From Escherichia coli (GTDB lineage: Bacteria > Pseudomonadota > Gammaproteobacteria > Enterobacterales > Enterobacteriaceae): a stretch of 64,000 bases of DNA. Location of the stretch: the NCBI RefSeq assembly GCF_046105845.1, contig NZ_CP151004.1; one strand, written 5' to 3'. The position numbers are program-made. Below are positions 1 to 3,000 of this stretch, in pieces. Position 1 is the first letter of the stretch. The number at the start of each line of letters is the position of its first letter.

Positions 1-3000
1 CTGTTCGACCGCCCACGCCAGCCCTTCAGCAAAACGTTGCTGGGTGCCTTCGTCGTGGTCTTCGTAATAGACGTCATAACCCGCCAGTTGAATGGTGCGA
101 ATGCCGAGATCGCGCGCCAGGCGAATCGCTTTACTCATGATTTCCCGCGCCCGTTCGCGCACCGCCTCGTCCCGGCTGCCAAAGGGAAAGCGACGATGTG
201 CGGACAGGCACATTGACGGAATGGCAACACCCGTTTCGATCATCGCAGTGACCAGCGAAGCACGTTGTGCGGCGCTCCAGTCAAGGCGTGACAAACGTTC
301 GTCAGTTTCATCCACCGACATTTCGACAAAATCAAAACCGCAGCTTTTCGCCAGCACCAGCCGCTCGGGCCAGGAGAGATCTTTCGCCAGCGCTTTTTCA
401 TAAATCCCTAACGGATGATTACGCACGCGCGCCTCCCCAGATGGCATCAATTTGCGCATGGAAATCGCCTGCCACCTGTGCCGGATTTGCCGCGCCTGCC
501 AGCGCCCGTCCGGCAATAAACGCCTTTACGCGGATATCTTTAAACAGTGGCAGATCAGCAGGAGTAATACCGCCGGTAATGGAAAGCTCAAAGCCGATAT
601 CGGAAAGCGCCTTCATGCGTGCCAGATCGGCTTCGCCCCACTGTTGCCCGCTGGCCTGCGCGTCACGACCGCGATGATAAATGGCCTGCCGCACGCCAAT
701 ACGATGCCAGTCGCGGGCGTCGTCCAGCGTCCAGTTACCGAACAGCTCTATCTGAATTTCACCACCGCAGCGTTGCGCCATGGCGTGGCCTTTTTCCACC
801 GTCGCGAGCGGCGCGGCGCAGATGATGGTCATCCAGTTAGCGCCTGCGCCAAACGCCTGTTGCGCGAGCGTTTCACCAGCGTCGGCGACCTTCCAGTCAG
901 CAACGATGATTTTGTCCGGGCACTGTTCGCGCAAGGCTTTCACCGCGCCAAGCCCTTCGTTTAAACAGAGAATGGTGCCCGCTTCGACGATATCGACGCT
1001 GTCTTTTAACAGCGTCACGTCGCGCTGCGCGGCTTCAAGTGATGAGTGGTCGAGGGCCAGTTGCAGAAGTGGTCGGCTCATAATGTGTGCTCCTTGATGC
1101 GGGCGTGATAACCCTGAAGTGCGGCAATGAGATGCTGATAACGTTGATATTTTTGTTGATAAAGCTGATGGGCGGTCATATCCGGCAGCAGTGTGCGCAC
1201 CGGGTGCTGCAAGTCACGTTGGGCTTCGCTGAAATCGCGATAAACCCCGGTGCCGACGCTGGCGGCAAGCGCCGCGCCAAAACAGCCGGTTTCTTCCACC
1301 TGCGGCAGTTCGATACGCAGCCCGCTGACGTCCGCCAGCATTTGCATCCAGACATCGGAATGCGCCGGGCCGCCAGTGACGCGCAGGGTGTGCACATCAG
1401 TAAAACGTTCGCGCATTCGGTTGAGATGGGTCATATGGCTGAACACCACGCCTTCATAAATGGCCTGCAACAGGTGTGCGCGGGTGTGAATGGCCTGCAT
1501 CCCGTAGAAACCGCTGGTCATCTCGAGTCCGGCGTTGCTGCCGTACAGGAACGGCAGGAAAAAGAGATCGCCCCCAGCCTTCGGCAAGCTGGCAACGGCC
1601 TGGTTGATCTCTGCAAATGAGATTTCTCCCCACTGTGCGGTAAACCATTCGAGGTTGCCGGAAGAGGTGGGGCTGGCTTCGTGAACGATAAATTGACCAT
1701 CGTTAACGTAGCGACCATAGACATACGGATGCGCTTCACCGTCACGTAAACCACGGGTTATGCCGCTGGTCACCGCCCAGGTGCCCATCACCGCATTAAG
1801 GGTAAATTCGTCTTCGATCCCGGCACAGAGTGCGGTGGAAACCACATCAAACAGGCCGCCGACAACGGGCGTGCCCGCTTTCAGACCGGTCAGTGCGGCT
1901 GTCTGAGCGGTGATCTCCCCGCAGATTTCGGCAGATCCGACAACAGGCGGCAGGGCGTGGTTGATTTCAGCGATCCCAAGCCAGTCGGTGAGGCACGGGT
2001 CATATTCCCCAAGACTCATGTTGTAGAGATTGGACTCAGAAATATTGCTCTCTTCGCAACCTTTGACGCCGGTTAAACACCAGCGCAGGTAGTCGTGCGT
2101 CATCATCACGCAGCCAATTTGCGCGTAGCGTTCCGGTTCGTGCTCTTTCAGCCAGCGTAACAGCGACACCGGATGCCCGGTCCACAAGGTTTGTCGGGTC
2201 AGCGGGTAGAGTTTTTCCGGGATGCCATCTTCCTGCCAGCGACGAACGATTTCCATCGCCCGGCGATCCGAGGACAAAATGGCGTTACCGAGCGGCTTGT
2301 TGTTTTTATCCAGCAAAAACAAGCCCTTTCCCTGCGCGGAGATGCCGATACCGACAATTTGTTCCCCGCTGACGCCGGAATGGGTAAGCAGGGCGCGAAT
2401 GACAGCCATGCAGCATTGCCACAGCTCTGCCATGTCGCGCTCTGCCCAGCCTGGCTGTGGACTTAATGCGCACAGCGGCAGGCGCTGCACGCCCGCCTCC
2501 CGGCCTTCTCGGTCATACAGCCCGGCTTTCAGCCAGCTACCGCCACAATCTAACCCCAGCCAGTATTGCGTCATGGTTTATTGCACCTCATCCACGGCTT
2601 TCAGCAGATCAGCTCCCTGCGGCACATCTTTAACAAACATGTCGCGAACCTGATTCCCCAGTGCGTCGCTAAAGGCTTTGCGGTCGAGATCGGTGATGAC
2701 TTCCACGCCCGCTTCTTTCATGCCATCGATGATTTTTTGCTGATCTTCGGCAACCAGTTTGCGCTGGTAGTTACCCGCTTCCTGCGCAGATGAGATCAGC
2801 GCCTGCTGGAACTCCGGGGTTAAGCCGTCAAACTTCGCTTTGTTGATCACCACCAGAAGCGGGGAGTAGGCGTGGTGCGTCAGAGAAAGGTACTTCTGTA
2901 CTTCGAAAAATTTTGCTGACCAGACGACGTTGATCGGGTGTTCCTGAGCGTCGATAGTGCGCGTTTCCAGCCCGGTATAGACTTCGGCAAACGGCATCGG

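What the first reader, a model, noticed from the sequence alone, without database searches (positions are those of the whole stretch)
419..426. sgbU appears to start at GTG inside the end of sgbH
Seen in sequence: the only start consistent with the conserved [13 protein letters not shown]-terminus is GTG at 424-426 on the minus strand, preceded by GGGGAGG and overlapping the sgbH stop codon by 8 bp. This suggests translational coupling within the yiaK-sgbE operon. It is minor, but automated callers often misplace this start.
Basis: seen in the sequence. Interest (0 to 1): 0.1.

Follow-up and report, generated by a model that had tools for sequence, protein, structure and literature searches.

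The report
sgbU GTG start overlapping sgbH
The sugar-epimerase gene sgbU really does begin at a GTG codon 8 bases inside the end of the preceding gene sgbH, but public annotation already places it there, so the finding is correct and ordinary.

Summary
On the minus strand there is a GTG at 426..424, followed by [18 protein letters not shown] lies at 438..432 with a 5-nt spacer. The sgbH stop TAA is at 421..419, so the two ORFs share 8 bp (GTGCGTAA).

None of them is supported.

Support for the GTG:
- In 80 orthologous loci the aligned codon is ATG in 71 and GTG in 5. In the other 4 the ATG lies 1 or 4 codons upstream.
- In 40 loci there is no other in-frame start upstream.
- The upstream ATGs appear and disappear with synonymous third-base changes in sgbH His and Asp codons.
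- The SD sits in the conserved Trp-Gly codons of sgbH. The Gly codon is always GGA or GGG, never GGC or GGT.
- NCBIfam profiles begin at this codon.

RefSeq annotated this exact start in all 9 E. coli records examined. Alternative calls of 288, 293, 297 and 316 aa exist but are rare.

Translational coupling is plausible, because −8 is a known enriched overlap class, but it is untested. An SD-masking hairpin was not significant. Verdict: already known, low interest.

The parts
424..426 (-). GTG initiation codon of sgbU
   Evidence: sequence. RefSeq CDS start. Aligned with ATG in 71 and GTG in 5 of 80 orthologous loci. NF009689 profile position 2 and TIGR00542 position 1 align to the next residue.
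432..438 (-). Shine-Dalgarno sequence GGGGAGG, embedded in the sgbH codons TGG GGA GGC (Trp-Gly-Gly), 5 nt upstream of the GTG
   Evidence: Duplex with the 16S 3' tail is -11.3 kcal/mol, in the top 0.02% of positions. The codon after the invariant Trp is GGA 56, GGG 12, AGA 9, AGG 3, and never GGC or GGT, although GGC+GGT make up 71% of Gly codons in sgbU of the same loci. The distance to the start is 10-11 nt in 79 of 80 loci.
419..421 (-). TAA stop codon of sgbH, lying inside sgbU codons 2-3 (cgT AAt)
   Evidence: SgbH matches the 220-position equivalog NF009831 over 1-220. The embedded TAA constrains SgbU residue 3 to Asn (23) or Lys (1) in all 24 loci with the 8-bp overlap; it varies (Q, S, T, V, R, K, A, I, N) in the other geometries.
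419..426 (-). 8-bp sgbH/sgbU overlap GTGCGTAA (the '-8 nt' class, NTGNNTRA)
   Evidence: The class is described in PMC12548453 and PMC10666635.
1..426 (-). 5' part of sgbU (first 142 of 286 codons); the gene runs off the window start
   Evidence: Pfam AP_endonuc_2 80.5 bits. The full-length protein from L001 scores 519 bits on TIGR00542 against a cut-off of 272.
419..1081 (-). [quoted passage not shown]
445..447 (-). In-frame upstream ATG (+7 codons), a decoy that spans sgbH codons GAT|GCC (Asp-Ala)
   Evidence: No SD (+0.3 kcal/mol). Absent from K-12 and most E. coli alleles, present in 13 of 80 species, and follows GAT/GAC wobble.
457..459 (-). In-frame upstream ATG (+11 codons), a decoy that spans sgbH codons CAT|GCG (His-Ala); source of the rare 297-aa annotation
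   Evidence: Weak SD, -5.9 kcal/mol at 11-nt spacing. Present in 11 of 80 species and follows CAT/CAC wobble. The 297-aa product is rare in public calls.
526..528 (-). First in-frame stop (TAA) upstream in the sgbU frame. TTG 514-516 and TTG 448-450 are the remaining mechanical start candidates.
1078..1081 (-). lyxK/sgbH ATGA overlap (-4 class), the preceding junction in the same operon

Best explanation
The GTG at window 426..424 (minus strand) is the genuine initiation codon of sgbU (L-ribulose-5-phosphate 3-epimerase, 286 aa). It is the Escherichia version of a start that is ATG in most other Enterobacterales.

Initiation is directed by a strong Shine-Dalgarno sequence (GGGGAGG, 5-nt spacer). 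This SD is written into the conserved Trp-Gly codons at the C-terminus of SgbH and is held there by selection on synonymous codon choice.

Because the start lies 8 nt inside sgbH (GTGCGTAA), the same bases serve both genes:
- ATG versus GTG in sgbU corresponds to His/Tyr/Asp (xAT) versus Arg (CGT) at the penultimate SgbH residue.
- The sgbH TAA fixes SgbU residue 3 as Asn or Lys.

Shown: the position of the start, the SD and its conservation, and the overlap. Inferred: ribosomes finishing sgbH probably reinitiate at, or help open, the sgbU start (translational coupling of the -8 class). I put that at roughly 0.5-0.6, with the SD also able to recruit ribosomes de novo.
For: - Sequence.
- Profiles: NF009689 (286 positions) position 2 and TIGR00542 position 1 align to the residue right after the GTG. 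Nothing in the 11-residue extension aligns. The UlaE structure 3cqh aligns from NHPLG onward.
- 80 species loci: the aligned codon is ATG in 71 and GTG in 5; the other 4 have an ATG 1 or 4 codons upstream. In 40 of 80 there is no other in-frame ATG/GTG/TTG before the upstream stop. In 6 loci an in-frame stop lies within 8 codons.
- The N-terminus [12 protein letters not shown] is kept although the stop/start geometry varies from -8 to +4.
- In the 24 loci with the 8-bp overlap, the sgbH frame reads a conserved [10 protein letters not shown] while the sgbU frame upstream of the start is scrambled. The upstream ATGs track CAT/CAC and GAT/GAC wobble.
- SD duplex energy is -11.3 kcal/mol for the GTG, against -5.9, -2.4, +0.3 and -3.7 for the upstream candidates.
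- The SD codon after Trp is always GGR or AGR (80 of 80), although GGC+GGT make up 71% of Gly codons in sgbU. SD-to-start distance is constant.
- All 10 E. coli alleles sampled (the window's included), plus E. albertii and E. whittamii, keep GTG, GGGGAGG and the 8-bp overlap.
- PGAP annotates this start in all 9 E. coli records examined.
- Coupling context: -8 is an enriched overlap class. The neighbouring junctions are -4 and -7. No promoter-like or terminator-like site lies on the minus strand in 1-1500. The operon is described in PMC6958661.
Against: - No direct mapping of the SgbU N-terminus or its initiation site in vivo was found. Ribo-RET shows no signal for this gene, and sgbU is absent from the TRAINSPOTTER supplements.
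- The only experimental data are cell-free INRI-seq on the K-12 allele. They list two peaks assigned to CTG(-14, out of frame; 3 of 5 replicates) and GTG(-6, in frame; 2 of 5 replicates), both outside the window used for the annotated start.
- Whether the annotated start was also detected could not be read, because the held copy of Table S2 is truncated.
- ATG(-11) is retained in every Escherichia allele seen, so within the genus it cannot be excluded by stop codons.
- For coupling specifically: the hairpin that would mask the SD is not better than shuffles (z = -0.55). The -8 overlap is reported to reinitiate less efficiently than shorter overlaps.
Confidence: 0.87

Rival explanations
1. The real or principal start is the upstream ATG at 459..457, giving a 297-aa SgbU with the extension [11 protein letters not shown]. 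This call is found in a minority of public records.
For: It is in frame with no intervening stop. ATG is the preferred start codon. It is retained in all 13 Escherichia-type alleles examined. The 297-aa product exists in public records, including AAB18559.1 and two WP_ accessions.
Against: The extension aligns to no family profile. This ATG is present in only 11 of 80 species and tracks CAT/CAC wobble of an sgbH His codon. Its SD is weak (-5.9 kcal/mol) and 11 nt away. Six species have an in-frame stop within 8 codons of the conserved start. The product is found on 8 and 26 contigs, against at least 1000 for the 286-aa form.
Confidence: 0.04
2. The start is the ATG at 447..445, giving a 293-aa SgbU with the extension MPSGEAR.
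For: It is in frame with no stop. A 293-aa E. coli product (WP_257604497.1) exists in public calls.
Against: There is no SD at all (+0.3 kcal/mol). The codon is absent from K-12 and from most E. coli alleles sampled, and it follows GAT/GAC wobble of an sgbH Asp codon. The exact 293-aa product of this allele is not in the collection.
Confidence: 0.02
3. The GTG is the start, but initiation is independent. The strong SD recruits free 30S subunits de novo, and the 8-bp overlap is only genome compaction with no functional translational coupling to sgbH.
For: The SD is among the strongest in the window and is under selection, which a pure termination-reinitiation mechanism would need less. No significant SD-masking structure was found. 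Many orthologs have small gaps (+1, +2, +4) rather than overlaps. The -8 class is reported to reinitiate less efficiently.
Against: The junction spacing stays within -8..+4 in all 83 loci despite repeated changes of geometry. This is the window associated with coupling. All three distal junctions of the operon overlap. SD sequences are known to enhance reinitiation as well (PMC12548453).
Confidence: 0.35
4. Several closely spaced initiation events occur around the SD, as the cell-free K-12 data hint. They would give a minor 2-residue-longer isoform (in alleles that have GTG at -6) and/or a short out-of-frame peptide from CTG(-14).
For: INRI-seq Table S3 lists peaks for b3582 at CTG -14 (37 CPM, 3 of 5 replicates) and GTG -6 (36 CPM, 2 of 5 replicates). 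A 288-aa call exists for strain J53.
Against: The GTG(-6) is the last part of an extended SD (GGAGGTG) with zero spacing. It exists only where sgbH uses GGT, and the window has GGC, so it has no GTG there. Offsets of -13 to -15 recur for many unrelated genes in the part of that table I read (12 rows in part 1, my count), which suggests a systematic footprint class rather than true starts. The construct carries only 30 nt of upstream sequence. No in vivo signal was recorded.
Confidence: 0.05

Closest known systems
E. coli K-12 sgbU (yiaR, b3582; RefSeq WP_001350555.1), as currently annotated
   Same: Same gene, same GTG start, same GGGGAGG SD, same 8-bp overlap with sgbH, same 286-aa length.
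   Different: The window allele is locally divergent: 93-96% DNA identity to all but one of 4852 E. coli genomes over window 1-1100. By my count there are 8 amino-acid differences over 286 residues. It has ATG(-7), which K-12 lacks, and it lacks the K-12 GTG(-2 codons).
sgbU orthologs of Klebsiella, Citrobacter, Raoultella, Yokenella and related genera with the same 8-bp overlap
   Same: Identical geometry (NTGCGTAA), SD in the Trp-Gly codons, N-terminus [12 protein letters not shown].
   Different: They use ATG, so the penultimate SgbH residue is His, Tyr or Asp (xAT). Escherichia uses GTG with Arg (CGT).
UlaE (paralogous L-ribulose-5-phosphate 3-epimerase of the ula operon; PDB 3CQH/3CQI/3CQJ/3CQK)
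   Same: Same fold family. The conserved PLGIYEKAL first strand lies directly after a short N-terminal tail (phmmer E = 2e-107).
   Different: A separate operon and a paralog. The UlaE-type profile NF009688 aligns from its position 6, so that N-terminal tail is a few residues longer. The ulaD/ulaE junction was not examined here.
'-8 nt' class of overlapping co-directional gene pairs (NTGNNTGA-type), linked to translational coupling by termination-reinitiation (Huber et al. 2019 and 2023; Brown & Wade 2025)
   Same: Co-directional, stop and start 8 nt apart in phase 1, SD inside the upstream gene.
   Different: Dependence of sgbU translation on sgbH translation has not been measured. The products are consecutive pathway enzymes; whether they form a heteromeric complex, the category reported as enriched in that class, was not examined here.

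Membership tests
L-ribulose-5-phosphate 3-epimerase SgbU/UlaE (NCBIfam TIGR00542 equivalog; NF009689) | Whole-protein score above the curated cut-off | tested here: met
   519.2 bits against a cut-off of 272 (TIGR00542) and 509.8 against 200 (NF009689), for the full-length protein taken from locus L001, which is identical to the window over positions 1-2600. The part inside the window scores 80.5 bits on Pfam AP_endonuc_2.
L-ribulose-5-phosphate 3-epimerase SgbU/UlaE (NCBIfam TIGR00542 equivalog; NF009689) | Profile begins at the proposed N-terminus (end-to-end alignment) | tested here: met
   In the 297-aa extended query, residue 13 (the residue after the GTG codon) aligns to position 1 of 279 in TIGR00542 and position 2 of 286 in NF009689. 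Residues 1-11 are unaligned.
L-ribulose-5-phosphate 3-epimerase SgbU/UlaE (NCBIfam TIGR00542 equivalog; NF009689) | Position in the yiaK-S operon between sgbH and sgbE (SgbU rather than UlaE) | tested here: met
   The order yiaN-yiaO-lyxK-sgbH-sgbU-sgbE(araD) in RefSeq records. Window ORFs for lyxK, yiaO, yiaN, yiaM, yiaL and yiaK, and the divergent yiaJ-sized ORF. SgbH family scan.
L-ribulose-5-phosphate 3-epimerase SgbU/UlaE (NCBIfam TIGR00542 equivalog; NF009689) | Epimerase activity on L-xylulose-5-phosphate / L-ribulose-5-phosphate | not testable with these tools
   Biochemical assay needed.
Canonical SD-led bacterial initiation site | ATG/GTG/TTG preceded at about 4-9 nt by a sequence complementary to the 16S rRNA 3' end | tested here: met
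   GTG with GGGGAGG and a 5-nt spacer; -11.3 kcal/mol, top 0.02% of positions.
Canonical SD-led bacterial initiation site | Start position and SD conserved among orthologs beyond what the coding constraint explains | tested here: met
   76 of 80 loci have ATG or GTG at the aligned codon. The SD codon is always GGR or AGR, against a 71% GGC+GGT background. Spacing is constant at 10-11 nt.
Canonical SD-led bacterial initiation site | Direct experimental mapping of the initiation site or protein N-terminus | tested here: inconclusive
   Only cell-free INRI-seq data on the K-12 allele were found, with peaks assigned to -14 and -6. The annotated-TIS table is truncated in the held copy. In vivo Ribo-RET signal is 0, and sgbU is absent from the TRAINSPOTTER supplements.
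Translationally coupled overlapping gene pair (-8 nt class; termination-reinitiation or RNA unfolding) | Co-directional genes with stop/start distance between -8 and about +6 nt on one transcript | tested here: met
   8-bp overlap GTGCGTAA. No promoter-like or terminator-like site on the minus strand in 1-1500. The operon is described in PMC6958661. The class is defined in PMC10666635 and PMC12548453.
Translationally coupled overlapping gene pair (-8 nt class; termination-reinitiation or RNA unfolding) | Translation of the downstream gene depends on translation of the upstream gene | not testable with these tools
   Needs nonsense-mutation and reporter experiments.
Translationally coupled overlapping gene pair (-8 nt class; termination-reinitiation or RNA unfolding) | RNA unfolding variant: a stable structure masks the downstream RBS | tested here: not met
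   The minimum-free-energy fold of window 496..415 pairs the SD, but at -31.3 kcal/mol it is not better than shuffles (z = -0.55; 63 of 200 shuffles fold at least as well).

The most novel reading that the evidence does not exclude
The most novel reading not excluded is this. In the Escherichia lineage the ancestral ATG of sgbU was replaced by the weaker GTG through a single base change that also turned the penultimate SgbH residue from His to Arg. This would deliberately lower SgbU output relative to SgbH. In addition, the ATG(-11) retained throughout Escherichia would give a minor N-terminally extended isoform. Both would be lineage-specific tuning of a cryptic operon through an overlap-constrained site.
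Probability: 0.06. Interest if true: 0.15.

Novelty: already known. Interest (0 to 1): 0.07.

Why it matters
It matters little beyond annotation hygiene. It confirms that the 286-aa SgbU model is right and that the 288-, 293-, 297- and 316-aa products found in some older or minority records are N-terminal over-extensions. As a small teaching example, it shows how 8 shared bases tie two proteins together. The start-codon identity of one gene fixes the penultimate residue of the other, and a stop codon fixes residue 3 of the downstream protein. It also shows an SD maintained purely through synonymous codon choice inside a conserved Trp-Gly motif.

Tried and rejected
1. SD-masking hairpin as the basis for coupling. 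The MFE structure pairs the SD, but z = -0.55 against shuffles, so I rejected it as evidence. I did not pursue covariation, because the region encodes a conserved protein.
2. Downstream starts (GTG codon 24, ATG codon 36). Rejected: they would delete the conserved PLGIYEKAL segment that aligns in the family profiles and in the UlaE structure, and they have no SD.
3. Opposite-strand ORFs 267..677 and 452..964: no Pfam match. Rfam: only one sub-threshold match elsewhere (16 bits against a gathering score of 125). No promoter-like site on either strand and no terminator-like site on the minus strand.
4. Literature. A full-text search for 'sgbU' gave nothing on its start. Yew & Gerlt 2002 (PubMed 11741871), PMC94634 (Ibañez et al. 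2000, id) and PMC94635 (my guess at its companion paper) are not held. The TRAINSPOTTER supplements do not contain sgbU. INRI-seq Table S2 is truncated before b3582.
5. I assumed the window equals strain AST215. That was wrong beyond window position 2600.
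Full report
**Observation**

On the minus strand, GTG occupies window 426..424. It is followed by CGT AAT CAT CCG TTA GGG ATT TAT GAA AAA GCG, which gives (M)[11 protein letters not shown]. The upstream ORF (1081..419, 220 aa) ends with TAA at 421..419, so the two ORFs share 8 bp (GTGCGTAA, 419-426). GGGGAGG lies at 438..432, 5 nt before the GTG. Every stated coordinate is right.

That stretch contains four more start candidates: ATG 447..445 (+7 codons), TTG 450..448, ATG 459..457 (+11 codons) and TTG 516..514 (+30 codons). The question is therefore real, not trivial.

**Identity of the genes**

- The 142 codons inside the window match the xylose-isomerase-like TIM barrel family.
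- The full-length protein, taken from a genome identical to the window over positions 1-2600, scores 519 bits on the L-ribulose-5-phosphate 3-epimerase equivalog TIGR00542, against a cut-off of 272.
- RefSeq records show the order yiaN-yiaO-lyxK-sgbH(named 'ulaD')-sgbU-sgbE(named 'araD'). This is the yiaK-S operon described in PMC6958661.

**Which start is real**

1. Profiles. I scanned the longest ATG-initiated version (297 aa). Both SgbU-type profiles begin exactly at the residue after the GTG codon (TIGR00542 position 1; NF009689 position 2 of 286). The 11-residue extension aligns to nothing. The solved paralog UlaE aligns from NHPLG onward.

2. Orthologous DNA from 80 species.
   - The codon aligned with the GTG is ATG in 71 and GTG in 5. 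The GTG cases are E. coli, E. albertii, E. whittamii, an Escherichia-like MAG and one other enterobacterium.
   - The remaining 4 (three Pantoea, one Hafnia) have an ATG 1 or 4 codons upstream.
   - In 40 of 80 loci there is no other in-frame ATG/GTG/TTG between the upstream in-frame stop and this codon.
   - In six loci an in-frame stop lies within 8 codons.
   - The N-terminus [12 protein letters not shown] is kept although the stop/start geometry differs. After correcting the four shifted starts, the 83 loci (80 species plus L001-L003) split as: -8 (24), -4 (6), -1 (15), +1 (13), +2 (24), +4 (1).

3. Frame-specific conservation. In the 24 loci with the 8-bp overlap, the sgbH frame reads a conserved [10 protein letters not shown], while the sgbU frame upstream of the start is scrambled. 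ATG(-11) and ATG(-7) are simply CAT|G and GAT|G across sgbH His-Ala and Asp-Ala codons, and they vanish when those codons are CAC or GAC.

4. Ribosome binding. Predicted pairing with the 16S 3' tail is -11.3 kcal/mol for the GTG, which puts it in the top 0.02% of 9140 sampled positions. For TTG(-30), ATG(-11), TTG(-8) and ATG(-7) it is -3.7, -5.9, -2.4 and +0.3.

5. The SD is itself under selection. It lies in the invariant Trp codon and the next codon of sgbH. That next codon is GGA (56), GGG (12), AGA (9) or AGG (3), and never GGC or GGT, although GGC+GGT make up 71% of Gly codons inside sgbU of the same genomes. The distance from this motif to the start is 10-11 nt in 79 of 80 species.

6. 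Within Escherichia. All 10 E. coli alleles sampled (the window's included), plus E. albertii and E. whittamii, keep GTG, GGGGAGG and the overlap. ATG(-7) and a K-12-type GTG(-2 codons) are polymorphic.

**Consequences of the overlap**

ATG versus GTG in sgbU is the same base as the middle position of the penultimate sgbH codon. That codon is CAT, TAT or GAT (His, Tyr, Asp) where sgbU has ATG, and CGT (Arg) in Escherichia. The sgbH TAA sits in sgbU codons 2-3 (cgT AAt). SgbU residue 3 is therefore Asn (23) or Lys (1) in every 8-bp-overlap locus, but varies in the other geometries.

**What is already known**

PGAP places the sgbU start at exactly this GTG in all 9 E. coli records examined.

Exact-sequence look-ups show the 286-aa product on at least 1000 contigs for each of two alleles. 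The alternatives are rare:
- 297 aa on 8 and 26 contigs. These include AAB18559.1, which from my own knowledge belongs to the 1994 K-12 segment U00039; I did not verify this here.
- 288 aa on 1 contig.
- 316 aa on 1 contig.
- A 293-aa E. coli product on 2 contigs.

So miscalls exist but are rare or historical. 'Often' overstates it.

**Experimental data**

I found no in vivo mapping. Ribo-RET signal is 0 for this gene, as expected for a repressed operon, and sgbU is absent from the TRAINSPOTTER supplements.

Cell-free INRI-seq on the K-12 allele uses constructs with only 30 nt upstream. It lists two extra peaks: CTG(-14), out of frame, and GTG(-6), in frame. I read these cautiously, for four reasons:
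- The -6 GTG is the tail of an extended SD (GGAGGTG) with zero spacing.
- It exists only where sgbH uses GGT. The window has GGC and no GTG there.
- Offsets around -14 recur for many unrelated genes in the part of that table I read.
- The table for annotated starts is truncated in the held copy, so I cannot say whether the annotated start was also detected.

**Mechanism**

The shown facts fit ordinary SD-led initiation at a GTG within a -8 overlap.

The -8 configuration is the third most common spacing of co-directional gene pairs in E. coli. It lies within the -8..+6 window associated with termination-reinitiation, although it is reported to be less efficient than -4 or -1 (PMC10666635; PMC12548453). 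The neighbouring junctions also overlap: lyxK/sgbH by ATGA and sgbU/sgbE by ATGTTAG. The sgbH/sgbU spacing never leaves -8..+4 in 83 loci. No promoter-like or terminator-like site interrupts the minus strand.

Together this makes coupling plausible, at about 0.5-0.6, but it is not tested. A hairpin that would mask the SD is predicted but is no better than shuffled sequence (z = -0.55), so the RNA-unfolding variant has no support here.

**Verdict**

The coupling interpretation is plausible but unproven, and the remark about callers is overstated. The feature is already annotated this way and belongs to a well-described class. Interest is low.

Noticed in passing
window 1-3600 (and locus L001): The sgbU-sgbH-lyxK end of the operon is locally very divergent. 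Window 1-1100 is 100% identical to one genome (AST215) and only 93-96% identical to the other 4851 E. coli genomes. Window 30001-31100 (ghrB/yiaD) is at least 99% identical to 2287 genomes. The window equals AST215 only over 1-2600; in yiaO (2601-3600) identity drops to 95.5-98.5%. This suggests a mosaic or recombinant locus and a source strain distinct from AST215.
   Followed up: partly
L001 4756-6100 versus L002/L003 4756-5049 (beyond window position 1): Downstream of sgbE, AST215-type strains carry an intact AraC-family regulator (816 bp) and an MFS transporter. The K-12-like lab strain (L002) and CFSAN027346 (L003) have only annotated pseudogene remnants there, followed by yiaT.
   Followed up: no
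L005 1242-3008 (Escherichia albertii NBRC 107761): A single 588-aa ORF replaces lyxK (498 aa) plus sgbH (220 aa). This is apparently an in-frame fusion after a deletion of about 390 bp, so the pathway may be inactivated in that strain even though the sgbH/sgbU junction is intact.
   Followed up: partly
window 419-1081: PGAP names the yia-operon decarboxylase 'ulaD / UlaD'. The equivalog NF009831 scores 451 bits on it. By operon context it is the paralog sgbH, so this is a naming ambiguity in RefSeq.
   Followed up: partly
window 1078-1081; L001 4029-4035: All three distal junctions of the operon overlap: lyxK/sgbH by ATGA (-4), sgbH/sgbU by GTGCGTAA (-8) and sgbU/sgbE by ATGTTAG (-7). Each has an SD-like purine run inside the upstream gene. 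yiaO/lyxK are separated by 3 nt.
   Followed up: partly
window 409-439 (minus strand): The CTG at 439..437, which INRI-seq flags at -14 in K-12, opens a 10-codon ORF in the third frame (CTG GGG AGG CGC GCG TGC GTA ATC ATC CGT TAG) across the junction. It is most likely a footprint artefact rather than a peptide.
   Followed up: no
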